Positions 470 through 63,814 of a stretch of 64,000 nt of DNA are shown here, one piece after another. Numbering within the stretch: the first letter of the stretch is position 1; every line of letters begins with the position of its first letter. Origin of the DNA: an uncultured virus (IMG/VR IMGVR_UViG_3300025413_000018) (taxonomy: Duplodnaviria > Heunggongvirae > Uroviricota > Caudoviricetes); IMG/VR virus record IMGVR_UViG_3300025413_000018; one strand, 5' to 3'. The notes under the pieces are model-generated. The model worked only from the letters and a program-made list of their open reading frames with translations, had not been told where the DNA came from and searched no databases. The position numbers were made by a program, and so were the translations under genes.

Positions 470-543
470 TGGAGGCGAGGGACGGACTCGAACCGTCGGT
501 GGGGCTTTTGCAGAGCCCTGCCTTACCACTTGGCTACCCCGCC
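470..543 (-). tRNA. tRNA-Cys(GCA)
   Basis: Reverse complement GGCGGGGTAGCCAAGTGGTAAGGCAGGGCTCTGCAAAAGCCCCACCGACGGTTCGAGTCCGTCCCTCGCCTCCA folds as a cloverleaf with GCA anticodon, GTTCGAG T-loop, U73 discriminator and encoded CCA. Confidence 0.96.
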
Positions 544-19214: not shown

Positions 19215-19645
19215 AGATTGCTCCGGTGATATGGCTCACCGGACGTTCAGGTGCCGGTAAATCTACTCTGGCAGAAGAGTATCGTAAACTACTCTACTCC
19301 CTAGGGTACTCCGTATTGGTTTTGGACGGGGATGGAATTCGATCTACTTTGTCCATTGATCTCGGCTTCTCACAAGAGGATCGGCAAGAAAACATCCGCC
19401 GAGTCGGCGAGATCGCAGTCATGGCGGCTTCACAGGGAATCACGACCATTGTGTCGATGATTTCCCCTTTTCGCGCTTGCCGAAACCTGGTGCGAACTAA
19501 GTGCCAAGAAGCAGGAATCAAGTTCATTGAAGTCTTGGTCAAGTGCCCGGAAGAGAACTACCGAACATACGATCAAGAAGTTGGGTACGAAGACCCTCTC
19601 ACGCCTGAGATTGTATCTGAGAACCGTCAAAACCTTCTTGCCTAG
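19211..19645 (+). CDS. cysC: Adenylyl-sulfate (APS) kinase, shortened
   Basis: IWLTGRSGAGKST, LDGDGIR, DLGFSQEDRQENIRR and ISPF are CysC signatures. Confidence 0.9.
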   Translation: MKIAPVIWLTGRSGAGKSTLAEEYRKLLYSLGYSVLVLDGDGIRSTLSIDLGFSQEDRQENIRRVGEIAVMAASQGITTIVSMISPFRACRNLVRTKCQEAGIKFIEVLVKCPEENYRTYDQEVGYEDPLTPEIVSENRQNLLA

Positions 19646-27955: not shown

Positions 27956-27972
27956 TTTTTAAGATCTAAAAT

Positions 27973-28017
27973 AACGCCCTAGGGTTGTGACTTTATTGTT
28001 GCACCCTAGGGTGTTTT
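27973..28017 (+). terminator. Hairpin/terminator built from two CCCTAGGG copies
   Basis: AACGCCCTAGGGT...ACCCTAGGGTGTT followed by T residues. Confidence 0.6.
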
Positions 28018-46700: not shown

Positions 46701-49700
46701 CACTTTCCGAGATTCAGTTAAGGAAGAAGCCAAGTCTGGGGTCGTGCCACGCCTTGCTCGTGATATCCGCAAGAGCGGAAGAAAAGCACCTGAACCTAAA
46801 AACGATACCCAGAAGTCTTTGACTTCAATGCTGTTCTCAAACATAGCGAGGATCGCACGAGCCAAGATTGAAGGTGCATCCGACAAGGCTGATGAGGCGG
46901 TTGTCCGTGCCGAACAACGAGGTGTAGGTCGTGCAGGTAAAAGCGAAAAAGGCGAAAAGGGAGTTCCGCTTATGCGGAAGGTCAATGGATCCGTGCAAGA
47001 AGACGATCTCGCAACCGCAAAGAACCTTTCTTCAGGTCTTCTAGAAAAAGGGATCAAGGTACAAGACTCAGACTACACAAGCGAAGGTCTAAGGAAAATT
47101 GAACAGCACTTTAAGGATACGCTAAACAAGGGTGCCGAAGAAACAGACTATACCACCAAGCAGTTGATGGGCATGGAAGCCCTCCTAGAGAAAATAAAAA
47201 ACAGAACTTTCAACAGGGATGACTTTAGATCTGCCGTAGAGCAAAAGCTGATAGACGCACCAAAGTCATATACTGTAGCCAGAGGAGATGTAGAATCTTC
47301 AATCGCAGGGAAAACAATACCAGGATCATCTGGAACACCTGGCGGTGGAACACTTTCCGGTAGCGACGCTTCAAAAATAGAAGAACGTATCCGTAATAAT
47401 GCAGGCCGTAAGTTGACCGATAAGGAATACTCGCAGGCAGTTCAGTCTACCCTAGAACAGGCCAAACAGCGTCAAATGAAACTGACCAAGGCCGACAAGA
47501 CTCATCTCACTTCGGTGATGGAATATCACAAGGTGGCGGCTCCTAGGTTGTCGGAAAACAATGTTTACGCCGCATCAAAACAGGCACTTCTCAAGGCTAA
47601 TGAGAAAACTAAAACTGCCGGCGCACGATCACGGACGTTCTTATCCATTGACGACCCAAACACAGGGTTGTCAGACCTTCACGATGAAGGGGATACCCGC
47701 ATCGAAGGCGATAATTTTTCAGAGCAAACTACCGACACACAGCCTAAGCCTGTAAGCGACGCAAATCAGGGAGACACAGTTCTAAAAAGTCTTTCTGATC
47801 TTCCAGATGGTGTGGGTAGCGACACTCATCCAGCATTCCAAGGTCTACCAAAAGCAAGTAGTGACTTTATCGATAAAGTCGGAATGGATGCACTAGAGCT
47901 TCACGAAGCCTTGATTGCGTCGAACAAAAAGTCAAATCTCACCAAGGCTCAACGCAACACTTGGAACAAAATTAAGAAAGAAATTTATGATAACGAAACC
48001 AACAGAAGAAACGGAGGAGCCAGAGGTTCCGATGTCCAAGTCGGCGAGGGTTCAACTCCTGTCTCTGGCGATGGCGAAAGCACATCCGACGGATTGGAAA
48101 GCCCTGCCAGATCAAGTGAAAATGAAGCTACAGCAGGGGGATCAGTCGGGTCTGGCGGATCTACTGAAGACACAGCCGGAAGCGTTTCAGCATCCGATGC
48201 TACAGCACCACGAGGATTCAGCTTGGGAGCATCTCCTGAGCAATCCAGAGCCCTCTCAGCCGCAGTAAAGAGCCGACTCGTTCAGTCGGCAGGGCGACTC
48301 TCCGATGCGGAGATCGCAAAGATGTCGCCTGAAGAGATCGACAAAGCGCATACCGCGCTAACCACGCAGGCCGACTCAAGCTCGGCCCATGCTAATGAGC
48401 GCATTGAAAGTGCCGCTCCTAGGGTGGAGGATGTGGTCAACAAAACCCTAGGAGAACTTGTAGCCGGTGCCAGGGAGGAAAGTATCAGGAGAACGCCTGC
48501 CGAAAGGGCACAGATCATCCGTAAAAACTACGCAGACCTGATTCGCTCTGGTGCTTTCCGTTCCCCTGCCGAATTCCTCACTAGGGTGGCTTCCGGTAAA
48601 CTAGAAGGAGTTCCTAGCGATCTCGCCCTTGTAGCTCGAACCATGTTGTCGGGAACCAAGGTTGACTGGAACAAAGTTGCCACGCAGATCGGTCGCTTCA
48701 CCGACAAGACCAGCCCCACAGGAGAAGCTCCTTGGAGCGGACTGGCGACAAAGCAGGGCAAAGGACACAACGTAGCCCTTAACCTGAACGCCCAAGCCGA
48801 TAGGGGAATCATCGGAACGTATATCCACGAACTCCTCCATACGGTAGAGCGAGACAAGATCACGGGTAAAACAAAGCTAAACCCAACCGAATCCAAGGCA
48901 CTTGATGAAATCAAGTCAGCCTACAAAGCTTTTTTGGATCGTGCGGGGATTGCCGGAACTCCCGCCGAGATCGAAGCCAAAGCCCGTGAAATGTCTCAGG
49001 GCAAAGGCGAGAACGATTACGGATATACTTTCCTGCGTAGCCCGGAAGAATTTGTCCGGGGAATCCAGGAGAGCCCGGATCTCCATGCCCTAGGGCAGTC
49101 CCTGGGATTGGATTACGGAGACGGCAAAGGCCCTCTGAAAGGTACCGCACGCAAGGTTTACGGAGCACTTACAGAGCTGGTCTCTGGGCGCAAAGCAGAT
49201 CAAAACTCCCCTCTGGTTCGTGCTTTCAGTTCTGCATTTGACCTGACGCATAGCAATCCTAGGGAGAACAAAGCATCTCCGTTGCACGCAGAGATGAAGG
49301 GCTACGAGCGTCGTGAATCATGGATCAGGGATCAGATCGAACAACGCAACCTACGCGGAACGACCAATGATAGGACGGCTCTGATCAAGGAGTGGAACTC
49401 CAAGGAAGGAATTAAAGACGTAGAGCCGGCCAAGGAGAATTCAAGTGGAGAAACATCTCCCAAGGAAACACCAACTCCGACGGACACAAAGAAGCCGGAT
49501 GAGGAGGAGCCGCCTGCGCCACCAGCCGGATCAGATAAGGGGCCTGAACCAGAGCCTCCTACTCCTGAACCCCCGAAGCCAAAACGAGGAAGGCCAAAGA
49601 AAGAAAGCACTCCGGTAGAGCGTAAGCAGGTGGCTGAAATAGCACCGGCACCTGAACCCCCTAGGGTGGAGCAGAAAACCGAAAAGCCGGCTGTCCAGGC

Positions 49701-52700
49701 AAAGAATGAGGAGGAGCCTGGAGAAACTTACTCGCAAGCAGATCTCCAACGACTTGCCGCTACTGCATCTTATGAGGAGTGGAAGAAAGCCGCTCAATCG
49801 GACGCTTCGGAGTGGGGTGGGGCTCCTACAAAAGAAGCGTACAGTGCAATGAAAAAGGTGGGGGCTCGTATGCTTGCCGGCAAGGAAACTCCTTTGGAGT
49901 CACCAGCTCGCGAGTCCCTAGGGGAATCGATGTTGCGCCTAGGGCGCGAGAAGGGTCAGGACATGTTCCGTCTCCCCCAAGAACTCTCAAAGAGTGATGA
50001 CCTGACGGAGGTTCTGAATTCCACGGGTAGCAAATTCTCTTCATTCGATGCCTATGGCATGAAGCTGATTTCTGAAACCCCGATCAAAGGAGATATGGTT
50101 CTTTTCCCTGCTACCGACGGAAAGAGAAACGATGGATACTCTGACGGAAAAGTAATCAAAGCCGAGAACGGCGTCCTTACGATTCGCCCAACAGACAAAA
50201 GCCCAGACTTTCAACTGCCAGAAACACAGGCGGTTGCCGCAAAGGGATCAGTTCGTCTGTACGATGATTCAGTACCTCACAGCGAAAAAGATAGCCTGAC
50301 AATCGATTCTTCCGACGGAGCCAACGGAACAATCCGTAAGGCTTCCAGCATTTATCAAGCGATCTACCAATGGGCTCACAACACCGGACAGAAGGTAGTT
50401 CCTGACACGACGACCTCATGGGCGGGTCATTTCCGTAGGAACGCACAACAGATCTCATCTGCAATACGAAACCAAGATGCAGAGCATTTCCGGCCTACCA
50501 TCGATCAGCGTAGCCGGATGTTCCCAAACCTCGACAAGGATGGATCCCTGCGTAAATGGGAGAGCCTAGATACCGCAGGAAAAGTCTCCGCTTTAATGCG
50601 TGCCGAGAAGAGTTATATTGAACAAGCCGCACCCGAACTTGTCTCACATAGCTATGACCCAGCCACAGGAAACTTTACCGACGAGAACGGAGCATCAGTA
50701 TCCATTCACGACATCCGAAGCAGAATTACTGAGGGACTTGCAGAGACGAAAAATGACGGGACTCCTGACCCTTTCCGAGTCGGAGAGGCAAGTCTTAGGA
50801 GATATCTGGGTGCGACGAGACCCGCGCTTGAAAACGCTGACGGACTCACAGCTTACAGCGCAGATAATAGCGGACATCTAGACAAAGCCCTTTATTCGGA
50901 GGAACGCCCTAGTGTCGTCAGGGACACATTAAGGAAGGTCGGTTCGATCATCCCAGAGGGGGCAAAGGAAACGCTATTTGGTAAAGACATCTCCTCCTAC
51001 AACGGAGTGAAAACTAGGTTGGCCGGACTCTTTACCGGCCCAGACAAGGGCGTAAACAAAAACGTATCGTTCAGTCACCAAGTGGCTCAGGGCATCAAGC
51101 TGAAGGCCGAGAACCACATCAAGTACGCAAATAGGTTGTGGTCTGAAGCCCTGAAGAACGATTACGGCAATAAGATATCCGAAGCGCAGTTGCTTGAAGC
51201 ACGAACCGCCCTAGGAAACTACGGGAATCCCCTGACCGACCTTGACGTAAAACGTGTCAACGAGGAGCAGGCAAAGAACGGGAGCGAGGCGGCAATCAAA
51301 CTCGCCAGGGAACTTACGCAAAAGAATCGTGAAACTTACCGGGACGAACAACAAAAAGCTCTGGATTCGCTACCCCCTAGGGCACGGGCGGCTATCGTTT
51401 CTTTCCGTGATGGCATTGACTCGTTGCAACAGGAGTTAATCCGGCAGGGCGTGGTCAGTGGTGATCTCAAGGCTACCCTAGAGGAGAATCATGGAATCTA
51501 TATTACCCGATCCTACGACCATCTGGATGCCGGTTTGACCCATGACGACATGGTCAAGAAGAACCCAGAGCTGGCACGCCGTATGGAGACCAGCACCCGT
51601 AACTTTTTGGCAAAGGAAAGGGCGCCGGAGATTCTTAACGAGAACCGCAAGGCCGGCGGAACAATGACAAAAGAGGAGGCACTTCAAGTTGCCAAGGATC
51701 AGGTTACAGAGGAAGAGGTTCACGATTCGTTGAACAGGCTTCTAAACCCTAGGGAGAATTCTTTGGATCGCCGGTTCACGATTGGACAGTTCCCTGGTCA
51801 AAAAGACCTGAGCACTTTCCTGAAACGCGGAAACCTAGAGGATGACCTCAAGCAGTACCTAGGGGAGCGAAAGGATCCTGCAACTATCGCCGCAGACACA
51901 ATGGGCAGGCAGGCCGCAGTTCTGGCAAATCATAAGTTCCTTTCAGACCTTCGGGAGTCCGGCCTCAAGGATGGTTCGCTATATGATCCGGCAGATCCAA
52001 AGAACAAAGGTAGGTCAATCCCTCACAAGTACGTTCCTATCGCTTCGATCAATAACGAATCATTGGCTCCGCTCAACGGCCTCTTTATCCAAAAAGAAAT
52101 CGGTGATGGACTGCTTCGGATGCTCCCTAGGATGGGCGCAAGCGACACGCCTTGGTTGCTCGATCTCTTCAAGAAAGTCACGGGTTACTCGATGGGCGCA
52201 AAGACCCAGTTCTCGCCGGCGGCGCAGGTTCGTCACAATGTATCCAACCTCCTAGGGTTGGTGACCACCGCCAACTGGCATGGTGGCCTAGTTCCAAAAA
52301 ACCTGAAGGAAGCGTATGGTAAGATCAATCCGTTCAGCTCCCTAGAGGACGCACGCAACAATCTTCCAGAGATCCAAAGGCTAACCGAGCTAGGTCTGCT
52401 CCACCAGTCAGAGGCAAACCGCCTGCTACATGAACTCATCGATGGTAATGAGAACGGAAAACAGACTCCCCTAGGGGACTTCCTACGCAAGATTGCCTCC
52501 CCGCTGAACAAGATCGGGGATACCGATATCCGTGGCGTGAAGCTAAAGCATCTCCCTGAAACCCTGTACGGAGTTTCGGATGCGGCTTACAAGGTTGCCA
52601 TCTTCTACGGCGAGCGTCAGAAATACGCAAACGCCCACCCAGAATGGACGCCGGAGCAGGTAGATCAGAAGGCGGCTCAGATCGCCCTAGATTGTCACTG

Positions 52701-53889
52701 GAGCTATGACCGATCGCCGGCGATCGTAAAGGAACTCTCCAAGGTTCCTATCGTTGCCCCGTTCGTTCGTTTCAGCTCCGAGGTTTATCGTACCAGCTAC
52801 AACCTGCTGAAGTTGGCACATGACGAGATCAAGGAAGGCAATGCCACCGGAAACGCGGAGCTTACCAAGATGGGCTGGGATCGTATGCGTGGTATCGCAA
52901 CGGTCGCCCTAGGGCCGTCCGCCCTGATTGCCATGACTCAGGCCGCAAGTGGCATGACCGACGAGGATCAGGAGGCTCTCCGTAAATTCCTACCTGAATG
53001 GCAGAAGAATGCTCAGATCATTCCTTTCCAGAAGGCCGATGGAAAGGTCGGGTACTTCGATCTCTCATGGTGGGATCACTATAAGATTCTTCGCACCCCG
53101 ATCAAGGCGGTGATCCGTGCGTTCTCCAACGATGAGGGCGACTTTGGAAAAGGACTCCACGACGCAATGATCGACGGAATGGGAGAACTCTTTCAGCCCT
53201 TCGATAAGGAACAGCTTACGACCAGTGCGATCATGGACATTGCTCGTAACAAAAACTCAGCCAATGGAGCACCGCTTTACAACCCGCAGGACTCGGCGGC
53301 AAACATCGGTCTTGCAGTCACCAACCGCTTGTGGACTGCCCTAAGCCCAGGTGCTATCGACAGCATAAATCGTATTTACAAGGGTGCTACTGGCTATGTT
53401 TCAGACAGCGGACGCTCCTACGATGCCGGTCAGGAAATTGCCAACATGGTTGGATGGCGTGCGGCTGACATGAACCTTGCAAACTCGTTGCATTTCACGG
53501 GATCCCAGTTCATGCAACAGAGTGCAAACGCTTCACAGCTATTGTCGCACGCCGCAACAAGCATCGGCTCTAGGACGGAACCGCAGGTTACCCAAGGGTA
53601 CAAGCAAGCGAATGAGGCTCACCAAGCCCTAGTGCAGGATCTACGCACAAAGTACGAGGCGGCAATCCAGCTCGGCATGAGCCCAGAGCAGATACAGACC
53701 GCCCTCAAGGGAGCTAGAGTATCTCAGGATGTCATCGACCAAGTTACCAGTGCGACTTACAAGAGATTCCAACCTAGTGCGGCATCGATCAAGCTACTCC
53801 AGAGCAGGGGTCAAGACGACCGAGTGCAGTGGTTGCAGAACGCAATCAACGCCACGCCGGAAACAGTAAACCTCAACCTAGGGCACTAG
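43735..53889 (+). CDS. Giant (3384 aa) internal virion/polyvalent protein with zincin HEXXH motif
   Basis: Uninterrupted ORF; Ala/Gly-rich N-terminus, IHELLH at 48826-48840, Pro-rich linker, helical C-terminal region. Confidence 0.75.
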   Translation: MSDDTNSLLQDPNWLQSIGQEIPGTSDAPEDTAQLSLEERLARTSGGMLPPKPTSLVGEIGKGIAAGARDLYGTAGGLVGLAGDALGNQDVKNFGLGIYQDQQEANQQNNAPAVSSIGEATKSFGNFADYAAYNLSKGLTEMVPMLAAGGVGGEIAGSLAEGAVQKAVQYGVEKGLSQEAAEAAVAASVRQGGAEKAAQSFSEALAPTMGEDAASKFGEEAFKAQSAKNTASFLGAQAGNAATIIPQSVGDEYGQTKDAETALGYGTASGALNAVAMGIVAAPAFRSMLGIGTEAAAKSSFLKSAATRIGTDTALMVGLAYPSTYLNQEAQASVDPSFDINSPEAQKQRMESVAGGALQGAAFGGLGSLEFLHNTAPLTADALQKITFTSKGEQPALTPEKLPDNATPHTVSPEVTITDPRTGESIKAQKNNTVGKWTINHPDGSMTILNTEDPNNTHAATLELLAQEELDKLNNKSEEDNNESSESEKLPVATTSELPADTSEFYPASFPTASGQAFAGQPAEESTAEPVSSTETPTEKQKFAEAGQVLGQLAANKQDTRTEFPVGTITESTRDPNLLSSALQKVTGIDLGSQVSEKKAQADAAVAASKTPENFTQNLQVGDPVSFDHPELGKVDAVVTQAETPSEHGLPEADSIKVQYNNPVTGRKKTQVIPRSSWSRIEAPKPEVPTTDEIVNTALGDNPTPQKLQQSGMSNIRVEGDQQSPTAVSGDIVLKDGLLPFNENKNRENDPIHALLDEAGKTGDYSKVVATGALPARYESKSKKTHGIWTGGELSSADRIALLNAEDGVTDGGRSASKAQEIKNRLEKVKETTVRQMNQGLRVLAPKGSIAPPGFEFTKLPNGLMQVTAVHDYLGTSWRMRGALDPVMTKANGHPTYFPGKPDTFSVDVPVGIKGKYSQKRGPDILTTRFNTPGLRAERSDIAREGHITRRENQENSENSEIQKNPLNHTESQLLNTVAGRALEHIDNSTFRDSVKEEAKSGVVPRLARDIRKSGRKAPEPKNDTQKSLTSMLFSNIARIARAKIEGASDKADEAVVRAEQRGVGRAGKSEKGEKGVPLMRKVNGSVQEDDLATAKNLSSGLLEKGIKVQDSDYTSEGLRKIEQHFKDTLNKGAEETDYTTKQLMGMEALLEKIKNRTFNRDDFRSAVEQKLIDAPKSYTVARGDVESSIAGKTIPGSSGTPGGGTLSGSDASKIEERIRNNAGRKLTDKEYSQAVQSTLEQAKQRQMKLTKADKTHLTSVMEYHKVAAPRLSENNVYAASKQALLKANEKTKTAGARSRTFLSIDDPNTGLSDLHDEGDTRIEGDNFSEQTTDTQPKPVSDANQGDTVLKSLSDLPDGVGSDTHPAFQGLPKASSDFIDKVGMDALELHEALIASNKKSNLTKAQRNTWNKIKKEIYDNETNRRNGGARGSDVQVGEGSTPVSGDGESTSDGLESPARSSENEATAGGSVGSGGSTEDTAGSVSASDATAPRGFSLGASPEQSRALSAAVKSRLVQSAGRLSDAEIAKMSPEEIDKAHTALTTQADSSSAHANERIESAAPRVEDVVNKTLGELVAGAREESIRRTPAERAQIIRKNYADLIRSGAFRSPAEFLTRVASGKLEGVPSDLALVARTMLSGTKVDWNKVATQIGRFTDKTSPTGEAPWSGLATKQGKGHNVALNLNAQADRGIIGTYIHELLHTVERDKITGKTKLNPTESKALDEIKSAYKAFLDRAGIAGTPAEIEAKAREMSQGKGENDYGYTFLRSPEEFVRGIQESPDLHALGQSLGLDYGDGKGPLKGTARKVYGALTELVSGRKADQNSPLVRAFSSAFDLTHSNPRENKASPLHAEMKGYERRESWIRDQIEQRNLRGTTNDRTALIKEWNSKEGIKDVEPAKENSSGETSPKETPTPTDTKKPDEEEPPAPPAGSDKGPEPEPPTPEPPKPKRGRPKKESTPVERKQVAEIAPAPEPPRVEQKTEKPAVQAKNEEEPGETYSQADLQRLAATASYEEWKKAAQSDASEWGGAPTKEAYSAMKKVGARMLAGKETPLESPARESLGESMLRLGREKGQDMFRLPQELSKSDDLTEVLNSTGSKFSSFDAYGMKLISETPIKGDMVLFPATDGKRNDGYSDGKVIKAENGVLTIRPTDKSPDFQLPETQAVAAKGSVRLYDDSVPHSEKDSLTIDSSDGANGTIRKASSIYQAIYQWAHNTGQKVVPDTTTSWAGHFRRNAQQISSAIRNQDAEHFRPTIDQRSRMFPNLDKDGSLRKWESLDTAGKVSALMRAEKSYIEQAAPELVSHSYDPATGNFTDENGASVSIHDIRSRITEGLAETKNDGTPDPFRVGEASLRRYLGATRPALENADGLTAYSADNSGHLDKALYSEERPSVVRDTLRKVGSIIPEGAKETLFGKDISSYNGVKTRLAGLFTGPDKGVNKNVSFSHQVAQGIKLKAENHIKYANRLWSEALKNDYGNKISEAQLLEARTALGNYGNPLTDLDVKRVNEEQAKNGSEAAIKLARELTQKNRETYRDEQQKALDSLPPRARAAIVSFRDGIDSLQQELIRQGVVSGDLKATLEENHGIYITRSYDHLDAGLTHDDMVKKNPELARRMETSTRNFLAKERAPEILNENRKAGGTMTKEEALQVAKDQVTEEEVHDSLNRLLNPRENSLDRRFTIGQFPGQKDLSTFLKRGNLEDDLKQYLGERKDPATIAADTMGRQAAVLANHKFLSDLRESGLKDGSLYDPADPKNKGRSIPHKYVPIASINNESLAPLNGLFIQKEIGDGLLRMLPRMGASDTPWLLDLFKKVTGYSMGAKTQFSPAAQVRHNVSNLLGLVTTANWHGGLVPKNLKEAYGKINPFSSLEDARNNLPEIQRLTELGLLHQSEANRLLHELIDGNENGKQTPLGDFLRKIASPLNKIGDTDIRGVKLKHLPETLYGVSDAAYKVAIFYGERQKYANAHPEWTPEQVDQKAAQIALDCHWSYDRSPAIVKELSKVPIVAPFVRFSSEVYRTSYNLLKLAHDEIKEGNATGNAELTKMGWDRMRGIATVALGPSALIAMTQAASGMTDEDQEALRKFLPEWQKNAQIIPFQKADGKVGYFDLSWWDHYKILRTPIKAVIRAFSNDEGDFGKGLHDAMIDGMGELFQPFDKEQLTTSAIMDIARNKNSANGAPLYNPQDSAANIGLAVTNRLWTALSPGAIDSINRIYKGATGYVSDSGRSYDAGQEIANMVGWRAADMNLANSLHFTGSQFMQQSANASQLLSHAATSIGSRTEPQVTQGYKQANEAHQALVQDLRTKYEAAIQLGMSPEQIQTALKGARVSQDVIDQVTSATYKRFQPSAASIKLLQSRGQDDRVQWLQNAINATPETVNLNLGH

Positions 53890-53892
53890 GGC

Positions 53893-54108
53893 ATGAGTCT
53901 CTGGGGCGAGGATAGTTCCATCACTCCTCCCGGAGGGTGGTACTACATTCAACCGGGAACCCGGTTCAGGTTCGAGGCTAATACCCTAGGGCAACTGGAG
54001 GATAAGGTTTCGGCCCACCGGCGGGGAAATAACATCACCCTAGGGCACCCTAGGGAGGATATCCTGGCGTGGACGCGTTCCCGCCTGGGTGGTGAAGAAG
54101 TGCTCTAG
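53893..54108 (+). CDS. Hypothetical protein
   Basis: PPGGWYYIQP motif; last plus-strand gene. Confidence 0.55.
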   Translation: MSLWGEDSSITPPGGWYYIQPGTRFRFEANTLGQLEDKVSAHRRGNNITLGHPREDILAWTRSRLGGEEVL

Positions 54109-56738: not shown

Positions 56739-58415
56739 TTACCGAGCCGGCATCGACTTGAGCTGGCGAACTAGGGCATCTGCCATGCCCCACAGGGACT
56801 CACGCCAGATAGCCGCATCGAAGTGACACTTTAGCTCTCTGGTTGTCTCGTTGTGGGAACAGCAGATACCTACGGTGTACAGGCCACGAGCACGCAACGG
56901 CTTGCGATCCAACGGCTCGTCGGTGATGCAACCATCGGTGTAGACAAGGCAGATCTTGCTCTTGCTTACGATCTCGTTGAAGGCACTCCTCTTGGAGGGT
57001 TTTTGCTCTAGGGCATTTGCGATACCCTCGCTGTCGCTCCACGCATGGAACTTCTGGAAGATCCTAGGATCTTTGATCGGAAGCACCACACGCTCACGCA
57101 CACCGCCCAGTGCAGTTGCATAGGCAACTCCGGTGATACGGCCACGCTTGGCGAGTAGGTTCAAGGCTCGCAGAAGCACACGGCCAGCCCCGTCGCAACG
57201 GATGTCGATTTTGCGTTCACGATCCACATACGCCTCATGTGCCATCGAGCCGGAGCAATCTACAAGCAACGAGACATGGGGCTTGCCACGCTCGCTCTGG
57301 GGCTTGCCGATGTACGGATGCAGGAAGTCACCACGCAGGATGCCACGCACGTTGAGACGCTTGCTGGGGCTACTGGTGATCTCCTTGCCGTCACCCCTCA
57401 CACGGAATGCGGTGTCGAGCATACCGGCAAGCCGATGGGACAGCTTGAACTCCTTCAGCTCTTCGGGATCCTTGGGGGGCGTCTCACCGCTGAACGGATC
57501 AGAGTTGCACTCGCTTCCGTAACCATCGGTGGTGCCGTCGATAGCCTTGCCAGCTTCCTCGCCTGCACCTCCAGGTGAAGACGAGTCGCCGTCACCCTTG
57601 CCGTCGGGGGAAGCACCCTCGCCCTTGGGATCCTTGGCCTTGACATCGCTGGGAGCTTTGCCAGTTCCTTCCTTGAGAGCACCTGCAAGGTCACCTGTGC
57701 CGAGACCGCCTTCGCTCTCGATGGTGTCATCGCCGGAGTGGGGGAATTCCCTGAGCCAATCTTTAAGGATCGGGATAAGCTCCTCGGTGGTACGAGCCCT
57801 GACGATCCTGCAATAGTACGCCCAGACCTTGCGGTAGAAAGGCAGGGGGCTCATCAGGATGCTGAAGTCACGGCTAGGACGCCCTAGGAGCGACTCGCAC
57901 TTGATGCGGTAGAGGAGATGCTGTGCCGAGATCTTGTCTACGTCCTTGGACTCTGGACGCTTATCCCAGTAGAGCCACTTCCACTTGCCGGCTCCGGCAA
58001 CGCCACGGCGATACCCAAAGAACCATCGGCGTTCGATGCGGCAGTCCTCGAAGAGGTTCTGCAAACGCCAAGGGATCTTCTCGGCAGACAGCTTGTCGGA
58101 AAGACCCTTGAGATCTTTGGTAGTGAACTTGCTGTGAGCCGCTTCATGCTCATAGACATGGCGGAACAACTGGGGCACTTGGATGCGTTTGGTCTTGTCG
58201 GTTGACAACTCGTTGTATGCGAGAGGTGAGATGCGGATGGTGTGACGATCCGTGGTCGGGTCGTACTTCCAGTAGCCTGTCTTGCAAGGGTCGGACTTGA
58301 GACCCTTGAGCCAGTCTAGGTCGTACTTCTCGTCGAGCACTCCGCGGGTGCGGAAGTCAACGTGGTGGTCTAGCACTTCCTTACGGATGTGTGGGGTTGC
58401 TACGATTTTGCTCAT
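56739..58415 (-). CDS. VWA-domain protein with N-terminal HEXXH domain (CobT-like MoxR partner)
   Basis: HEAAH...NLFEDCRIE, Gly/Asp-rich linker, MIDAS DCSGS and YTDG. Confidence 0.8.
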   Translation of the reverse strand: MSKIVATPHIRKEVLDHHVDFRTRGVLDEKYDLDWLKGLKSDPCKTGYWKYDPTTDRHTIRISPLAYNELSTDKTKRIQVPQLFRHVYEHEAAHSKFTTKDLKGLSDKLSAEKIPWRLQNLFEDCRIERRWFFGYRRGVAGAGKWKWLYWDKRPESKDVDKISAQHLLYRIKCESLLGRPSRDFSILMSPLPFYRKVWAYYCRIVRARTTEELIPILKDWLREFPHSGDDTIESEGGLGTGDLAGALKEGTGKAPSDVKAKDPKGEGASPDGKGDGDSSSPGGAGEEAGKAIDGTTDGYGSECNSDPFSGETPPKDPEELKEFKLSHRLAGMLDTAFRVRGDGKEITSSPSKRLNVRGILRGDFLHPYIGKPQSERGKPHVSLLVDCSGSMAHEAYVDRERKIDIRCDGAGRVLLRALNLLAKRGRITGVAYATALGGVRERVVLPIKDPRIFQKFHAWSDSEGIANALEQKPSKRSAFNEIVSKSKICLVYTDGCITDEPLDRKPLRARGLYTVGICCSHNETTRELKCHFDAAIWRESLWGMADALVRQLKSMPAR

Positions 58416-58491
58416 GGTGTGTTGTTGGTTGTGGGCGGAGAATCCTGTACGAGATTCTCCGCCCTAGGTTGTGTTTGTTGGTGCGTGGTTA

Positions 58492-59997
58492 TTACAGCGT
58501 TGGAACAGTGAAGCCGTACTTGCCGAAGATCTTGACGAACGCCTCGTTGACCTTCTTGACCTGCTCAGGCTCAGGCTCGCCCTCGATGGTGTTGCTCACC
58601 CAGAGGTTGACGCCCAGACGATACAGCTCGGTAGCAACGCCAGCCTCACCCTTGGCAGGGTCGGAGAACTGCAACGCCTCGCAGAACGTGCTGATGTTGG
58701 GAACCGATCCGAGGAAGCCATCGGCGGCAAGAACCTTGGCGTGCTTCCAGAACTCGACCAGCGAGTCGAGCAAGGAGGACTTGTAACCTAGGGCAGAGGT
58801 GTAGCCTCCGACCACGGCACGAACCTTGGCCTCGTCAACCCTGACATGGATGTGAACGAAGCGACGCTTGGTGGCGGGATCGCCCTCGTCGATGTCGTAC
58901 TGGCTACCGACGTTGGTGGTTGCGACGATCGCAAGGTTGGCAACCGGAGCAAGCAACTCCTCGCTGACATGAACCTTGGTGACTGGATCCTCGATGAAGC
59001 GTCCGGTACGGAGCTTGTAATACTCCACGCCGCCGATGTTGGTCGGCTGGAACGGAGTGAGGAACAAGGACTGAACCGAAGACCTAGCGCGGAGGATCTC
59101 GTCGGCCACGAACAGGACGGTCTGTCCTAGAGCGGCCTTACGCCACGCCTCGGACATCGGGCCATCGACCCAAGGTACGGTCGGAGTCTGATACCCTAGG
59201 AGGTCGGTCGCCTCGGTCGAGTTGTGGATGCCGACCTCGATGTAGTGGTCGAACATCGAGCCGTGGTTACGAGCCTGGTACGTCTTGCCTGCACCGGGCT
59301 CACCCTTGATGAGCAACGGCTTGATCGCACGAGCCGGAGAGGCGTAACGCTCTAGGGCATGGGCGACCTGACACGTTGTCGTGCTGGTCGGGGTGGGGGC
59401 GATGATCGCACTGATCTTGCGTGCCGCCGAAGCACCGCCGGAGGCAAGGGCATCGGTGATGTCCTTGGTCAGCTTGTCGAGCTTCTCGTCGGTGACGGTC
59501 TGCAATGCGTCCATGCCAGCACAGATCTTGTCAGCCATCTCGGTCTTGAAGTCATCAAGCTCCGCCTTGCGAACGATGTCGGGGTCGGTGACGCTGGAAG
59601 CAACGCCTCCGCTGGAAACGCTGGATGCGATCTTGGCCTCGATCTCGTCGAACTTCTCCTGCACCTCGGAGAGCTTCTCGCCCTGTGCCTCGATGAACGC
59701 CTTGGCCTCGCCAACGTCCTTGCGGATGTCAGCGGTCTGATCCTCGACGATGCGGTTGATGGCCTCCTCCATAGCCTCGCTTGGAGGCGGTGTGCTGGCA
59801 GGAGTGCCGGAGGTTCCTAGGGTGATCTCCTGCGCCTGTGACGCCGTGATCTCGCCCTTGATGAACCGACGGAACGTGTCGGTCTTTGCGGTCGCAACCC
59901 AGATGCCGGTGGCACCTAGGCGACGAGCTTCCTTGATGGCCTCCTTGTAGTTGAGGCTGTCGATCTGCTCTGCTGTCAGGGTGGTGTGCTTGCTCAT
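58492..59997 (-). CDS. MoxR/CobS-like AAA+ ATPase
   Basis: GEPGAGKT, WVDGPM, ADEILR, ATTN and DPATKRRF. Confidence 0.85.
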   Translation of the reverse strand: MSKHTTLTAEQIDSLNYKEAIKEARRLGATGIWVATAKTDTFRRFIKGEITASQAQEITLGTSGTPASTPPPSEAMEEAINRIVEDQTADIRKDVGEAKAFIEAQGEKLSEVQEKFDEIEAKIASSVSSGGVASSVTDPDIVRKAELDDFKTEMADKICAGMDALQTVTDEKLDKLTKDITDALASGGASAARKISAIIAPTPTSTTTCQVAHALERYASPARAIKPLLIKGEPGAGKTYQARNHGSMFDHYIEVGIHNSTEATDLLGYQTPTVPWVDGPMSEAWRKAALGQTVLFVADEILRARSSVQSLFLTPFQPTNIGGVEYYKLRTGRFIEDPVTKVHVSEELLAPVANLAIVATTNVGSQYDIDEGDPATKRRFVHIHVRVDEAKVRAVVGGYTSALGYKSSLLDSLVEFWKHAKVLAADGFLGSVPNISTFCEALQFSDPAKGEAGVATELYRLGVNLWVSNTIEGEPEPEQVKKVNEAFVKIFGKYGFTVPTL

Positions 59998-60053
59998 GTT
60001 GTGTTGGTGTTGTGAATCCTGTACGAGATTGTTGTGTACAGGATTCGGGTGGT

Positions 60054-60116
60054 TGACCTACTGCTCATCAGTGCCAGCTCGGTCGTTGCTGGCAGACCGC
60101 CACTCGGCGGTTTCGC
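60054..60116 (-). ncRNA. Hammerhead ribozyme, type II (HH-1)
   Basis: GC-GAAA-C-CGCC-GAGU-GGCG-GUC/UGCCAGC-AACGACCGA-GCUGGCA-CUGAUGA-GC, with 3' tail GGUC able to pair with loop I GACC. All conserved core nucleotides are present. Confidence 0.9.
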
Positions 60117-60117
60117 T

Positions 60118-60495
60118 TTAGAACTTGAAGGTCGTCGCCTTGGCCTTGCTCACGAGCAATGAGGCAATCGATAGCGGGAGCCGTTCGGCTTCCCCTCGTT
60201 CAACCCTGATCGGATACCCCAATTCGATGGCGCACTTGATACCGCTTTCATATGTTTGAAAGCAGTAGCTTACCTTCCAGTCGTCTGTACGAACCGGGAT
60301 CTGAATGTACTTTCCATCCATTACCCAGTCGTTGTTTTCCAGCCACAGGACGCCATCGTCCGTAGTATCGGGAGTCGGGCCGGATCGATCTTTGATCGCA
60401 ATCATTCCCGTGATGTCGTCTTTCCAGAACGAATGCCCATCCTCGGACTGGTACTGCTTGATCCATGCGTACTTACGTTTGACTGCTGTGCTCAT
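60118..60495 (-). CDS. Hypothetical protein bracketed by two hammerheads
   Basis: 125-aa ORF with a canonical TAAGGAG Shine-Dalgarno. Confidence 0.7.
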   Translation of the reverse strand: MSTAVKRKYAWIKQYQSEDGHSFWKDDITGMIAIKDRSGPTPDTTDDGVLWLENNDWVMDGKYIQIPVRTDDWKVSYCFQTYESGIKCAIELGYPIRVERGEAERLPLSIASLLVSKAKATTFKF

Positions 60496-60526
60496 GTTTA
60501 ACTCCTTATGCTTCTGTGTTTCTGTT

Positions 60527-60610
60527 TGACCTAGTGCTCATCAGTGCATGGTGGTCAGCCATACAGACACCCTAGGGTTGGGCGGTTAAGACACCCCTAG
60601 GATGTTTCGC
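60527..60610 (-). ncRNA. Hammerhead ribozyme, type II (HH-2)
   Basis: GC-GAAA-C-AUCCUAGGG-loop-CCCUAGGGU-GUC/UGUAUGG-CUGACCA-CCAUGCA-CUGAUGA-GC, with tail GGUCA pairing loop I UGACC. Confidence 0.9.
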
Positions 60611-60650
60611 GTTCAATCTTTCTACCTACTACTACCCGCTGGTGTCGGGT

Positions 60651-61775
60651 TTACTCTGTTAACGCCGGCTCGGCCTTGTACTTGAGCTGGTCGATTGTGC
60701 AGTCCGTTCGGGCGATGTCATCACGCTCGCCCAGGTACACGGGCTGGAACAACGAGCCGCCTTCGTAAGCATAGAGATACTGAACCTCGATCACCGATCC
60801 GATGGACGGTATCGGAATCGTACCTCCGATGGTGACGTTACCTATCGGTGTGAGTATGGGGCTTCCGTCTGCTGGATCGTAGACACCCATTCCAACCGAA
60901 CGCTTGCCTTCGGTGTGCCCAGTCACAACGACCGATGCCGTAGCAACGAACTTGAACTTGAGTTGCGTACCGCCGGATGCCGGACGGCCTGACTTGTACG
61001 CAGACATCTTCCGCTTGAACACGACTCCCTCGCCCCTCTCTTCCTTGATCACGGTGAACGCTTCACGCTTCGTTGCGTTAGTGTGCCATGACAATACCCA
61101 GTGAATGCAGTTGTCGTGACGGCTCGGCTTGCCAGCGAGGAGGTTCATCAGCTTGGTCAGACGGAAGTGGTAGGAGTTCTCCGTCATGTCCGTACCTCCT
61201 AGGGAGAGCAGATCAAAGACATGGTACTGATCCCCGATCAACTCGCCGTCGATAATGAAGTCCTGCCCTAGGTCTTCCGCCTGCTCTAGGACATTGGCTG
61301 GGATGCCACACTCCAATCCGGTTCGGTTGGTTCCGAAGACACGGCTTCCGGTTCGGTGCAACAGGATACGCTTGCCGTCCATCTTGGGTTGCATGAGCCA
61401 GTTGTCGTCCATGAACAGACGCTCCAGCTCCGACTCATCCACGGGGTTGAGGAGCTGTGGCAACACTCGGTCTGCCATCGGTGGTGGCTCGGCGACTGGC
61501 GTGGCCGGAGCCGTCATCTTGGGAGCCGAGGTGCTACTGATCTCGGTGTACCCCTTGGCTTTCTTCTCGTTGACGATCTTGGTGTAGAGGATCAATGCCG
61601 CCGTCGCGGATACAGGAGTCATGGTTTTCGTTCCATGATTCATGGTTCCTCCACGGCGTCCGTATGTGAAGTTGACGCAGTAGCCGTCTTTGACCATCTC
61701 ATCCACTCGGATGCTGTACACCTTGTCGCTACTGCCTTCGCAGTACCCTAGGGTTGTTGATACGATTGTGCTCAT
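60651..61775 (-). CDS. WGR domain fused to a minimal ATP-dependent ligase
   Basis: WGR: SDKVY...YGRRG...KGY. Ligase motifs: KMDGKR, IDGEL, VFDLL, EGVVFK, LKFK, plus a C-terminal OB-like domain. Confidence 0.85.
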   Translation of the reverse strand: MSTIVSTTLGYCEGSSDKVYSIRVDEMVKDGYCVNFTYGRRGGTMNHGTKTMTPVSATAALILYTKIVNEKKAKGYTEISSTSAPKMTAPATPVAEPPPMADRVLPQLLNPVDESELERLFMDDNWLMQPKMDGKRILLHRTGSRVFGTNRTGLECGIPANVLEQAEDLGQDFIIDGELIGDQYHVFDLLSLGGTDMTENSYHFRLTKLMNLLAGKPSRHDNCIHWVLSWHTNATKREAFTVIKEERGEGVVFKRKMSAYKSGRPASGGTQLKFKFVATASVVVTGHTEGKRSVGMGVYDPADGSPILTPIGNVTIGGTIPIPSIGSVIEVQYLYAYEGGSLFQPVYLGERDDIARTDCTIDQLKYKAEPALTE

Positions 61776-61805
61776 CGGTTTGATTCCTTTCTGGTTGTGT
61801 GGTTA

Positions 61806-62345
61806 TTACTTGTTTTCCTGTACAGGATTCTTATCGAGGGGCGTTCCCTCAAAGCTGACCCATGCCCATACCTGGACATAGGCTCCGTTGTCCTCGCCTT
61901 CGCTGACCTCGGCGTCATCGTCGATCTCAACGCCACGAGGTTCGAGTTCACCCGATGACCTCTGGCTCTTTGCCAACTGCACGATGTCCTGACGGCGACT
62001 CTCTTCCGGCGAGAGGCTTGGGTAGGCAATTCCAATGTCCTTAAAAGGCAACCCATTCTTCTTGCAGTACCTCTGCATGACCCCAGTCTTTCCCTGCTCC
62101 AGAATCTCCTCCTCTCCCAGCCACTCGACTAGCAACTGGATGCCCTCGTCGCTGATGATATCGTCGTTGATCTCGTTGCCGGATTGATCCTGATACTCTT
62201 CCAACTCGTCCTCGGTAAGCGTGACCTGCACGTTGCCGGATTCGTTGTCGAGGATTACGACGCCGCGTAAGTCGAGGCGTTCGTCGTCAGGGCAAGCAGA
62301 CATCAGCTTGCCAGCTTCAATGGTGGTGTATGTTTTGGTGCTCAT
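61806..62345 (-). CDS. Acidic hypothetical protein
   Basis: VEIDDDAEVSEGEDNGAYVQVWAWV motif. Confidence 0.65.
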   Translation of the reverse strand: MSTKTYTTIEAGKLMSACPDDERLDLRGVVILDNESGNVQVTLTEDELEEYQDQSGNEINDDIISDEGIQLLVEWLGEEEILEQGKTGVMQRYCKKNGLPFKDIGIAYPSLSPEESRRQDIVQLAKSQRSSGELEPRGVEIDDDAEVSEGEDNGAYVQVWAWVSFEGTPLDKNPVQENK

Positions 62346-62530: not shown

Positions 62531-62574
62531 GTTGTGTGGTGTTGTTGGTTTGGTTTCCTGTACAGGATTGTTGG

Positions 62575-62980: not shown

Positions 62981-63115
62981 GTTTGTTTTCTTTCGTGTTG
63001 TGTTGTTGTTTGACTCCAGCGATCCGATGGATCACCAGACGGCTACGCCCTAGGGATGGAACCTTGGACGCAGGTTGTCTGATGAGAATCCTGTACGGGA
63101 TTCTGTGTGGGGTTA

Positions 63116-63789: not shown

Positions 63790-63814
63790 AATCGTGTACA
63801 GGATTGTTGGGTTA

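What the first reader, a model, noticed from the sequence alone, without database searches (positions are those of the whole stretch)
60054..60610. Twin type II hammerhead ribozymes that excise one orphan gene as a discrete RNA
Seen: two complete hammerhead cores (GAAA-stem III-GUC, stem I, CUGAUGA, 2-bp stem II) on the coding strand. Their stems differ in sequence but both pair, and both have a loop I/3' tail pseudoknot (GACC:GGUC). HH-1 starts 1 nt after the stop of ORF 60118..60495, and HH-2 lies upstream of its RBS. Predicted cuts at 60566/60565 and 60095/60094 release a ~471-nt RNA holding the whole ORF. Known: cleavage leaves 5'-OH and 2',3'-cyclic phosphate ends, which RtcB-type ligases join, as for retrozyme circles. 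Inference: protein-free processing of the early polycistron, possibly yielding a circular mRNA.
Basis: partly seen in the sequence, partly recalled or inferred. Interest (0 to 1): 0.88.

Follow-up and report, generated by a model that had tools for sequence, protein, structure and literature searches.

The report
Twin hammerhead ribozymes flank phage gene
Two self-cutting hammerhead RNA motifs really do bracket a small gene in this phage, but this layout has been known in phages since 2011, the gene is not an orphan, and nothing supports a circular RNA.

Summary
Two complete type II hammerheads lie on the minus strand. The downstream one (60118..60055) scores 43.5 bits against Rfam RF02276, above the curated cut-off of 37. 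The upstream one (60612..60528) scores 27.3 bits, below the cut-off. It is rescued by an orthologue in a related metagenomic phage whose stem I carries four fully compensated pairs. The predicted cuts (60566/60565 and 60095/60094) would release a 471-nt RNA holding the RBS and the whole 125-aa ORF.

Clustered hammerheads flanking single phage genes, and the idea of spliced or circular products, were published in 2011 (PMC3088659); those authors looked for such products and found none. The gene is not an orphan: an exhaustive HMMER search found 142 proteins including itself. A circle would carry an intact chimeric hammerhead at its junction.

New here: a relative has one hammerhead at the same junction and no cassette. 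A second relative shows a mosaic breakpoint inside the upstream hammerhead. The most likely role is protein-free cutting of a polycistronic message at gene borders, at the edge of a variable gene slot. This scan has already noted similar twin or arrayed phage hammerheads on other DNA. I rate it a new member of a known kind, of modest interest.

The parts
60528..60612 (-). Upstream type II hammerhead (HH-up). Stem II strand is G60610 C60609. GAAA is 60608-60605. Stem III is 60605-60595 paired with 60577-60567. C17 is 60566, so the cut is 60566/60565. Stem I is 60565-60559 paired with 60551-60545. CUGAUGA is 60544-60538. Stem II strand is G60537 C60536. The pseudoknot pairs GACC 60556-60553 with GGUC 60531-60528.
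   Evidence: RF02276 27.3 bits, below the gathering score. Descriptor hit. The orthologue L017:359-442 scores 34.2 bits and has 4 compensated stem I pairs; 70 of 70 cells pair.
60055..60118 (-). Downstream type II hammerhead (HH-down). Stem II strand is G60116 C60115. Stem III is 60111-60106 paired with 60101-60096. C17 is 60095, so the cut is 60095/60094. Stem I is 60094-60088 paired with 60078-60072. CUGAUGA is 60071-60065. Stem II strand is G60064 C60063. The pseudoknot pairs GACC (loop I) with GGUC 60058-60055.
   Evidence: RF02276 43.5 bits, above the gathering score of 37. 45.8 bits with the lineage model R1. Descriptor hit.
60118..60495 (-). 125-aa gene between the ribozymes, with RBS AAGGAG at 60507-60502. 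It belongs to an uncatalogued family of small phage proteins whose conserved block contains the residues GH, AI.D.SG.TPD and TDDGVLWLD.
   Evidence: 142 HMMER hits including the query. Alignment A3. No Pfam or PHROG family for the 68 aligned members. AF2 model with pLDDT 92. Only weak PH-like fold matches, Z about 5.
60095..60565 (-). Predicted excised RNA of 471 nt. The 5'-OH end carries the stem I hairpin and pseudoknot of HH-up. The 3' end carries the stem III hairpin of HH-down, ending GUC with a 2',3'-cyclic phosphate.
   Evidence: Length and junction tests. The end chemistry follows from established hammerhead chemistry and was not tested here.
60613..60665 (-). Conserved leader of about 50 nt in front of HH-up. 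It is shared with L012 and L017, although the upstream gene differs in each. It holds stop codons that three different upstream genes use.
   Evidence: A second copy without a hammerhead lies at L012:196-229.
60010..60046 (-). 11-bp hairpin between HH-down and the ATPase start codon (59997). It belongs to a repeated intergenic palindrome family.
   Evidence: MFE -16.4 kcal/mol, z -7.4. 8 motif copies against 1 expected. An equivalent hairpin follows the L017 hammerhead.
60651..61775 (-). Upstream gene: ATP-dependent DNA ligase with a WGR domain.
   Evidence: Pfam PF01068 and PF05406; phrog_114.
58492..59997 (-). Downstream gene: AAA_5 (MoxR/CobS-like) ATPase. Its 5' UTR begins at the HH-down cut.
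   Evidence: Pfam PF07728. Its relatives were used to fetch L012-L018.

Best explanation
Both elements are functional, cis-acting type II hammerhead ribozymes in a same-strand gene array of a tailed phage.

As the array is transcribed, each hammerhead should fold: stems I and III as hairpins, a 2-bp stem II, and a 4-bp pseudoknot between loop I and the 3' tail. Each should then cut after C17. This would split the message at two gene borders:
1. The ligase mRNA would end in the stem III hairpin of HH-up with a 2',3'-cyclic phosphate.
2. A 471-nt monocistronic mRNA for the 125-aa protein would be released, with a 5'-OH behind a hairpin-plus-pseudoknot cap and a 3' hairpin.
3. The ATPase mRNA would start with a 5'-OH at the HH-down stem I hairpin.

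The likely effect is to uncouple the stability and translation of neighbouring genes.

In evolutionary terms, a hammerhead in front of the ATPase gene is the older feature. The 125-aa gene with its second hammerhead sits as a cassette in a variable slot, and the hammerhead-plus-leader unit marks the edge of that slot.

What is shown: motif integrity, covariation, position, and the cassette's presence or absence. What is inferred: cleavage in vivo, the nature of the RNA ends, and the effect on expression.
For: Motif integrity:
- Rfam hits. All core positions and all three stems are present in both motifs (my parse).
- My descriptor gives 2 hits in the window and 0 in 200 randomisations.

Selection on structure:
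- The L017 orthologue of HH-up keeps stem III and loop I but has a different stem I, with 4 pairs changed on both sides.
- 70 of 70 cells pair, against 26-44% when the partners are slid.
- L012 turns a U.G in stem III into U-A.
- HH-up and HH-down differ throughout stems I and III, yet both pair, and they share the stem II and pseudoknot letters.

Position:
- Both are intergenic on the coding strand. One starts one base after the stop codon; the other ends 20 nt before the RBS.
- No terminator-like site lies between the genes, and the single weak promoter-like site compares with 5.1 expected.

Conservation of the site:
- L017 (ATPase 61% identical) has one hammerhead between a homologue of window gene 61806..62345 and the ATPase, with no ligase and no 125-aa gene.
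- All 4 near-identical contigs that cover the region keep both hammerheads (L003, L012, L013, L014).

Precedent:
- PMC3088659 (passages) reports clustered hammerheads flanking single prophage genes that cleave in vitro and in E. coli.
- PMC8782182 (passages) reports type II hammerheads near phage-like genes in D. vulgaris, two of them close together, cleaving in vivo.
Against: - No RNA evidence of any kind for this phage. Public runs could not be searched.
- HH-up scores below Rfam's gathering score (27.3 against 37).
- The covariation rests on only three distinct sequences, two of them nearly identical, so 4 compensated pairs amount to a single divergence event.
- The pseudoknot never varies, so it is neither supported nor refuted by covariation.
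- A more distant relative (L005, ATPase 40% identical) has no hammerhead, so the element is not needed for ATPase expression in general.
- That one transcript crosses all three genes is assumed, not shown.
- A repeated gene-end motif elsewhere in the region could mark promoters or terminators of an unknown type.
Confidence: 0.75

Rival explanations
1. Circular mRNA. After both cuts, the 5'-OH and 2',3'-cyclic-phosphate ends of the 471-nt RNA are joined, either by a host RtcB-type ligase or by hammerhead reversal. The result would be a translatable circle.
For: - The end chemistry fits RtcB (established knowledge).
- The two ends carry complementary hammerhead halves with identical 2-bp stem II strands, so they can dock. 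The circle junction satisfies the full hammerhead descriptor.
Against: - The same result argues the other way. A sealed circle contains an intact, presumably active hammerhead across its junction. With only 2 bp holding the halves together, the equilibrium should favour the open form.
- No alternative rod-like fold of the kind viroids and retrozymes use to lock the circle was looked for or seen.
- No endless reading frame exists: stops occur in all three frames of the circle.
- No RtcB or RNA ligase was found in the 64 window ORFs scanned. The host is unknown.
- PMC3088659 states that spliced or circular products were sought in comparable prophage clusters and not detected.
Confidence: 0.06
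2. Recombination joint. The hammerhead sequences, with their conserved leader, matter mainly at the DNA level. They would act as short conserved homology blocks at which phages swap, insert or delete gene cassettes, as promoter-stem-loop (PeSL) cassettes do in T4-type phages. RNA cleavage could be an additional function or the original one.
For: - Against L012, differences are dense upstream of 60570 and absent from 60569 to 58117. The switch from diverged to identical sequence therefore falls inside HH-up, 4 nt before the cut site.
- The slot between the gene-61806 homologue and the ATPase holds three different contents in three phages, always bounded by a hammerhead.
- The 3' cores of the two hammerheads form a 25-nt direct repeat (23 of 25 identical) around the cassette. 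A deletion between them would leave one hybrid hammerhead, as in L017.
- The L017 tail matches HH-down at the one base where the two tails differ.
- Three different upstream genes end at three different stop codons inside the shared leader.
Against: - Only three configurations are known, from one lineage.
- The crossover can be placed only downstream of the last difference. Its exact site is unknown because the other parent is not at hand.
- 25 nt is short for homologous recombination.
- Strict conservation of catalytic positions and compensated stem changes show selection on the RNA, which a DNA-only role does not explain.
- Mosaic joints at any conserved intergenic element are ordinary in phages.
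- My paper search found nothing on hammerheads as recombination joints, but it was a word search and would miss other wording.
Confidence: 0.12
3. Inactive relics. The motifs are hammerhead-derived sequences that no longer cleave and persist only as intergenic hairpins.
For: HH-up is below the Rfam cut-off and has an unusually long stem III loop. No activity data exist.
Against: - No core position is mutated in any of the four variants (window HH-up, window HH-down, L012, L017).
- Stems are kept through compensated changes.
- The tail that forms the pseudoknot is kept in both paralogues and in the orthologue.
Confidence: 0.05

Closest known systems
Hammerhead ribozyme type II (Rfam RF02276), as defined by Perreault et al. 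2011 (PMC3088659)
   Same: Open stem II with closed stems I and III. Canonical core (CUGAUGA, GAAA, A15.1-U16.1, C17). Very short stem II. Pseudoknot of 4 bp between loop I and the tail after stem II. Bacterial/phage setting.
   Different: HH-up has an 11-bp stem III with a 17-nt loop and scores below the family cut-off. The exact tail (17-mer) has no other true hammerhead match in IMG/VR: 4 stretches matched, 1 is this phage itself and 3 are chance hits without a hammerhead.
Clustered hammerheads flanking single genes in prophages (A. tumefaciens, A. caulinodans, C. scindens in PMC3088659; D. vulgaris loci 2 and 3 in PMC8782182)
   Same: Two or more hammerheads on one strand, a few hundred nt apart. 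They bracket one small gene of variable identity in a phage gene array. The proposed role is cutting long transcripts into single-gene mRNAs.
   Different: Here there is comparative evidence that the bracketed gene is a cassette absent from a relative that keeps one hammerhead, and that a mosaic boundary falls inside a hammerhead. I saw only passages of these papers, not their figures or supplements, so I cannot say whether they noted the same.
Retrozymes and viroid-like circular RNAs with hammerheads (PMC4918200 and PMC7761336, seen only in the search listing)
   Same: Two hammerheads release a unit-length RNA with 5'-OH and 2',3'-cyclic-phosphate ends that a tRNA-ligase/RtcB-type enzyme can seal.
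   Different: From my own knowledge: those use type III or type I hammerheads inside long direct repeats, mostly carry no ORF, form rod-like circles and are eukaryotic or subviral. Here the hammerheads are type II, the only repeat is the 25-nt core, a protein gene lies inside, the genome is a dsDNA phage, and no circle is known.
PeSL mobile regulatory cassettes of T4-type phages (PMC2839356, abstract read; PMC4122927, search listing)
   Same: A short conserved intergenic element flanks small genes of unknown function in a variable region. Insertions, deletions and replacements between related phages are bounded by the element.
   Different: PeSLs are a promoter plus a terminator stem-loop and act on DNA and transcription. 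Here the element is a self-cleaving RNA. DNA mini-circles are shown for PeSLs and not tested here.

Membership tests
Hammerhead ribozyme type II (RF02276) | Conserved catalytic core: C3 U4 G5 A6 N7 G8 A9, G12 A13 A14, A15.1-U16.1, H17 | tested here: met
   All positions are present in both motifs (my parse; descriptor; Rfam alignments).
Hammerhead ribozyme type II (RF02276) | Three-way junction with stems I and III closed by loops and stem II open | tested here: met
   Stems I (7 bp each) and III (11 and 6 bp) are hairpins. Stem II is 2 bp between the 5' and 3' ends.
Hammerhead ribozyme type II (RF02276) | Score at or above Rfam's gathering score (37 bits) | tested here: met
   HH-down scores 43.5 bits, so the feature is met. 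HH-up scores 27.3 bits, so it is not met for that copy. The L017 orthologue of HH-up scores 34.2 bits.
Hammerhead ribozyme type II (RF02276) | Base pairs supported by covariation | tested here: met
   Stem I has 4 of 7 pairs changed on both sides between HH-up and L017. 70 of 70 cells pair; slid controls pair 26-44%. This rests on only 3 sequences. Stems II and III and the pseudoknot barely vary.
Hammerhead ribozyme type II (RF02276) | Tertiary contact: pseudoknot between loop I and the 3' tail, of 4 bp or more | tested here: inconclusive
   GACC:GGUC is possible in all four variants and is kept although loop I differs in length (7 against 9 nt). It never varies, so covariation cannot test it.
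Hammerhead ribozyme type II (RF02276) | Site-specific self-cleavage | not testable with these tools
   Needs transcription and cleavage assays, or RNA end mapping.
Clustered gene-flanking hammerheads of phages and prophages (Perreault et al. 2011) | Two or more hammerheads on one strand, close together, flanking a single gene or a short block in a phage genome | tested here: met
   The two cut sites are 471 nt apart around one gene. The window is a tailed phage: polymerase A, helicase, RuvC, integrase, terminase, tail fibre.
Clustered gene-flanking hammerheads of phages and prophages (Perreault et al. 2011) | The identity of the flanked gene is not constant | tested here: met
   None of 19 other phage loci carrying a member of the 125-aa family has any Rfam ribozyme within 1.5 kb. 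None of 24 such loci has a descriptor hit. L017 has the hammerhead without the gene.
Retrozyme / viroid-like circular RNA | A covalently closed circular RNA exists | not testable with these tools
Retrozyme / viroid-like circular RNA | Hammerheads embedded in long direct repeats | tested here: not met
   The only repeat between the two ends is 25 nt, 23 of 25 identical. PBS/PPT elements and a locking fold were not examined.
PeSL-like mobile regulatory cassette | Indels and replacements between related phages are bounded by the repeated element | tested here: inconclusive
   One breakpoint lies inside HH-up and one cassette presence/absence is known. Three genomes are too few for a statistic.
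PeSL-like mobile regulatory cassette | The element is a promoter plus a terminator stem-loop | tested here: not met
   No sigma-70-like promoter or intrinsic terminator lies at either hammerhead.

The most novel reading that the evidence does not exclude
The hammerhead pair marks a mobile gene cassette. The unit 'gene plus hammerhead' would move between phages by using the conserved ribozyme core and leader as a portable joint. The leader would also supply a stop codon for whatever gene lands upstream. On this reading, clustered phage hammerheads are the footprint of cassette traffic, an RNA-enzyme counterpart of PeSLs or integron sites. The RNA circle with its rebuilt hammerhead might be an intermediate.
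Probability: 0.12. Interest if true: 0.65.

Novelty: new member of a known kind. Interest (0 to 1): 0.33.

Why it matters
Why phages place self-cleaving ribozymes between genes is still open; the 2019 review PMC6765202 (passages) says the purpose needs more work.

This locus adds one clean, well-defined example:
- Two intact type II hammerheads, exact predicted ends, and a short 471-nt product.
- A natural 'before and after' comparison. A relative has one hammerhead and no cassette; another has the same cassette behind a different upstream gene.

That makes it a convenient test bed for two questions:
1. Does hammerhead cutting insulate a newly acquired gene from its neighbours?
2. Do ribozyme sequences double as recombination joints?

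It does not change what is known about hammerheads, and it gives no support for a circular phage mRNA.

Tried and rejected
Searches that led nowhere:
- The window's own assembly is not held. The nearest record, G001, is near-identical and added nothing beyond the same two hits.
- The phage GenBank collection gave no DNA match to 58400-61800.
- Public sequencing runs could not be searched, so I used neither read laying nor any RNA evidence.
I did not resend it and used the DNA search and BLAST in scripts instead.
- The 17-mer tail pattern in IMG/VR matched 4 stretches: 1 self and 3 chance hits with no hammerhead. The 16-mer of the HH-up 5' half matched only self.
- Distant relatives fetched through the ATPase (L005, 40% identity) and the ligase (L011, 38%) have no hammerhead and no shared gene order at this junction. 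They could not test insertion.
- The genome collection gave no ATPase relative and one relative of the 125-aa family, on a 2.9-kb MAG contig. The host remains unknown.

The 125-aa gene:
- The word-indexed search found only the protein itself, which looked like 'orphan' until the exhaustive search.
- The ESM Atlas gave nothing usable.
- The single-sequence AF2 model was poor (pLDDT 34.6).
- With the alignment, the model is confident (pLDDT 92). Foldseek against PDB and BFVD gave nothing at E <= 1e-3.
- VIA-align's best matches are Z 5.0-5.3 to Ran-binding, EVH1, Dcp1 and PH domains. That is below the level the tool calls meaningful, so it is a hint of a PH-like fold and no function.

Other rejected ideas:
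- That hammerheads are a trait of this gene family: rejected (0 of 19 loci; 0 of 24).
- Rolling-circle translation: rejected, because stops occur in all frames.
- A MAFFT alignment that included HH-down mis-aligned stem I. I therefore counted pairs only on the three HH-up-type sequences.
Full report
**What is in the sequence**

I read the minus strand of 59900..60800. The gene order is: a 374-aa ATP-dependent DNA ligase with a WGR domain (60651..61775), a 125-aa ORF (60118..60495), then a 501-aa AAA_5 ATPase (58492..59997). Two type II hammerheads sit in the two intergenic spaces.

Rfam's model RF02276 matches 60118..60055 at 43.5 bits, against a gathering score of 37. It matches 60612..60530 at 27.3 bits, with E 0.023 in a 6-kb search and 0.24 in the whole window. 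No other ribozyme family and no third hammerhead appears in the 64 kb at E <= 5.

- Stem II is the same 2 bp (GC with GC) in both motifs.
- Stems I are 7 bp each.
- Stems III are 11 bp (17-nt loop) and 6 bp (4-nt loop).
- GUC precedes the cuts at 60566/60565 and 60095/60094.
- Each loop I holds GACC, complementary to GGUC four bases after stem II.

The downstream hammerhead begins one base after the TAA stop (60120-60118). The upstream one ends 20 nt before the RBS AAGGAG (60507-60502). The piece between the cuts is 471 nt.

**Is it more than chance?**

I wrote a structural descriptor: the core, stems III and I of at least 4 bp, and a 2-bp stem II. It finds exactly these two sites on both strands of the window, and none in 200 second-order Markov randomisations of the window. 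Minimum-energy folds of each motif reproduce stems I and III.

**Context**

The window is a tailed dsDNA phage. It has family A DNA polymerase, a helicase, a RuvC-like resolvase, an integrase, a large terminase, an endolysin, tail fibres and a 3384-aa virion protein. The hammerheads lie in a run of minus-strand genes (about 64000 to 54100). No terminator-like site lies between ligase, ORF and ATPase. One weak promoter-like match compares with 5.1 expected by chance. A single transcript across the three genes is therefore plausible but not shown.

**Relatives**

The window's own assembly is not held. The nearest record has the same two hits. The ATPase was the useful handle, because a metagenome scan with it returned seven loci.

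- *L017* (ATPase 61% identical) is the key locus. It has one type II hammerhead (L017:359-442, 34.2 bits). This lies between an upstream gene and a hairpin followed by the ATPase start, with no ligase and no 125-aa gene.
  - Its upstream gene is a homologue of window gene 61806..62345, which in the window precedes the ligase.
  - Its stem III and loop I are nearly those of the window's upstream hammerhead, so I treat it as that motif's orthologue.
  - Its stem I is different, and four of the seven pairs are changed on both sides.
  - On the three-sequence alignment, 70 of 70 cells pair, against 26-44% when the partners are slid.
  - This is the main reason I accept the sub-threshold upstream motif as real.
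- *L012* (ATPase 100% identical) carries the same cassette, but behind a 77-aa ORF instead of the ligase.
  - Differences from the window are dense down to 60570 and then absent for 2.45 kb, from 60569 to 58117.
  - The boundary between diverged and identical sequence therefore lies inside the upstream hammerhead, 4 nt before its cut site.
  - One of the differences turns a U.G pair of stem III into U-A.
- A covariance model built from the three upstream-type sequences finds the downstream hammerhead at 45.8 bits. It finds no further complete copy in the window or in 26 loci.
- All 4 near-identical contigs that cover the region keep both hammerheads.
- More distant relatives of the ATPase (40%) and the ligase (38%) have no hammerhead.

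**The gene is not an orphan**

Pfam and PHROGs give nothing, and the word-indexed search found only the protein itself. An exhaustive HMMER search of 1.84 billion representatives then found 142 proteins at E <= 1e-3, the query included. Seven are at 1e-10 or better, and the best non-self hit is 54% identical.

These are small proteins that share a strongly conserved block, with invariant D36, S38, G39 and P42 in alignment A3. None of the 68 aligned members has a convincing Pfam or PHROG family.

With this alignment AlphaFold gives a confident model (pLDDT 92, pTM 0.81), against 34.6 without it. Foldseek finds nothing at E <= 1e-3 in PDB or BFVD. The exhaustive structural search gives only Z 5.0-5.3 to Ran-binding, EVH1, Dcp1 and PH domains. 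That is below the level the tool regards as meaningful, so it is a possible PH-like fold with no function assigned.

The family occurs on 24 IMG/VR loci. None of 19 non-redundant, non-self loci has any Rfam ribozyme within 1.5 kb, and none of 24 has a descriptor hit. The hammerheads belong to this phage lineage's junction, not to the gene family.

**How it most likely works**

By established hammerhead chemistry, each motif cuts after C17 and leaves a 2',3'-cyclic phosphate and a 5'-OH. In a type II hammerhead the two products are held together only by stem II, here 2 bp, so they should part at once. The predicted products are:
- a ligase mRNA ending in a long hairpin;
- a 471-nt mRNA for the 125-aa protein, with a hairpin and pseudoknot at its 5'-OH end and a hairpin at its 3' end;
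- an ATPase mRNA beginning with a 5'-OH hairpin, followed by a second strong hairpin (60046..60010; z -7.4).

Structured ends without a 5' phosphate or a 3'-OH are poor substrates for the usual bacterial decay enzymes. That is background knowledge, not tested here. I therefore favour insulation and differential stability of neighbouring genes. This is the role proposed in the literature (PMC3088659, passages; PMC6765202, passages).

**The circle**

Both hammerheads have the same stem II strands. As a result, the junction of a circularised 471-nt RNA satisfies the full hammerhead descriptor, and so does the junction of the reciprocal 'spliced' product.

This means the ends can dock. It also means any circle would carry an intact ribozyme at its seam. 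Other points against a circle:
- All three frames of the circle contain stops.
- No RtcB or RNA ligase is among the 64 window ORFs scanned with Pfam.
- Perreault et al. state that they looked for spliced or circular products in comparable clusters and detected neither.

I put the circle at about 6%.

**The cassette and the joint**

Three phages show three contents for the slot between the gene-61806 homologue and the ATPase:
- L017: a hammerhead only.
- L012: a 77-aa ORF, a hammerhead, the 125-aa gene and a hammerhead.
- The window: the ligase, a hammerhead, the 125-aa gene and a hammerhead.

A conserved leader of about 50 nt precedes the upstream hammerhead in all three. The three different upstream genes end at three different stop codons within it: window TAA 60653-60651, L017 TAA 318-320, L012 TAG 2865-2867.

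The 3' cores of the two hammerheads form a 25-nt direct repeat, 23 of 25 identical. The L017 tail matches the downstream hammerhead at the single base where the two window tails differ.

All this fits hammerhead-plus-leader units serving as module joints, much as PeSL cassettes do in T4-type phages (PMC2839356, abstract). It rests on three genomes, and mosaic joints at conserved intergenic elements are common in phages. I hold it as a secondary, non-exclusive reading at about 12%.

**Comparison with what is known, and novelty**

The motifs are members of the type II hammerhead family. The downstream one qualifies by Rfam's own threshold, the upstream one by core, architecture and covariation.

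The arrangement matches the clustered gene-flanking hammerheads of prophages described in 2011. Type II hammerheads near phage-like genes, two of them close together, were shown to cleave in vivo in D. vulgaris (PMC8782182, passages).

This scan's own notes list many similar twin or arrayed phage hammerheads on other DNA. They are unchecked by me and are not evidence.

My word searches for hammerheads as recombination joints found nothing relevant. That shows only that those words do not co-occur in the library. I saw passages of the papers, not figures or supplements.

**Verdict:** a real feature and a new member of a known kind, of modest interest.

Noticed in passing
whole window, e.g. 60570-60577, 27977-28011, 54038-54055: The 8-base palindrome CCCTAGGG occurs 38 times in 64 kb against 0.8 expected, in genes and between them. 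CCTAGG occurs 97 times, while other 8-mer palindromes I counted occur 0-4 times. This is a highly iterated palindrome of unknown role, perhaps mirroring the host genome. One copy forms part of stem III of the upstream hammerhead.
   Followed up: partly
window 58440-58450, 60014-60046, 61820-61830, 62560-62570, 63086-63103, 63796-63806: A palindromic motif (GAATCCTGTAC and its complement) occurs 8 times in 58.4-63.8 kb against 1 expected. The copies lie at or near gene borders, between a stop codon and the A/C-rich leader of the next gene. It forms strong hairpins (z -7.4 at 60046..60010). It could be an RNA processing or stability signal, an operator, or a promoter of an unknown type.
   Followed up: partly
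26 sites, e.g. 61801, 63111, 63680, 63810 (minus strand); 17100, 22689, 25854 (plus strand): The motif TAATAACC (a double stop plus ACC) occurs 26 times. Where I read the context (minus-strand copies in 58.4-63.8 kb) it sits at gene ends on the gene's strand. It is missing at the two borders that carry hammerheads. It is a conserved gene-end or gene-start signal.
   Followed up: no
window 60628-60661 (minus strand) and L012:196-229: The leader in front of the upstream hammerhead has a second copy (94% over 34 nt) in a related phage, where no hammerhead follows. The leader is therefore a repeated junction element in its own right.
   Followed up: partly
window 60118-60495 (minus strand) and A3: The 125-aa protein defines an uncatalogued family of small phage proteins. 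There are 142 HMMER hits including the query, with invariant D, S, G and P in a conserved block. The AF2 model is confident, with at most a weak PH-like fold match.
   Followed up: yes
window 27945-28014 (minus strand): A hairpin built from two CCCTAGGG copies resembles stem III of the upstream hammerhead (21.7 bits with model R1, partial match only, no core). This suggests that stem III was recruited from the phage's iterated palindrome.
   Followed up: no
window 43735-53889 (plus strand): A 3384-aa virion-type protein (phrog_22602; Pfam LPD37 at residues 2187-2356) ends the structural block.
   Followed up: no
window 19211-19645 (plus strand): An adenylylsulphate (APS) kinase domain protein (PF01583, E 1.4e-37) lies among plus-strand genes downstream of the large terminase, which makes it a possible auxiliary metabolic gene.
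   Followed up: no
window 473-543 (minus strand), 13811-15052 (minus strand): A tRNA (61.6 bits) and a tyrosine-type integrase (phrog_1) are present, so the phage may be temperate. No relative of the ATPase was found in 185,579 species genomes.
   Followed up: no
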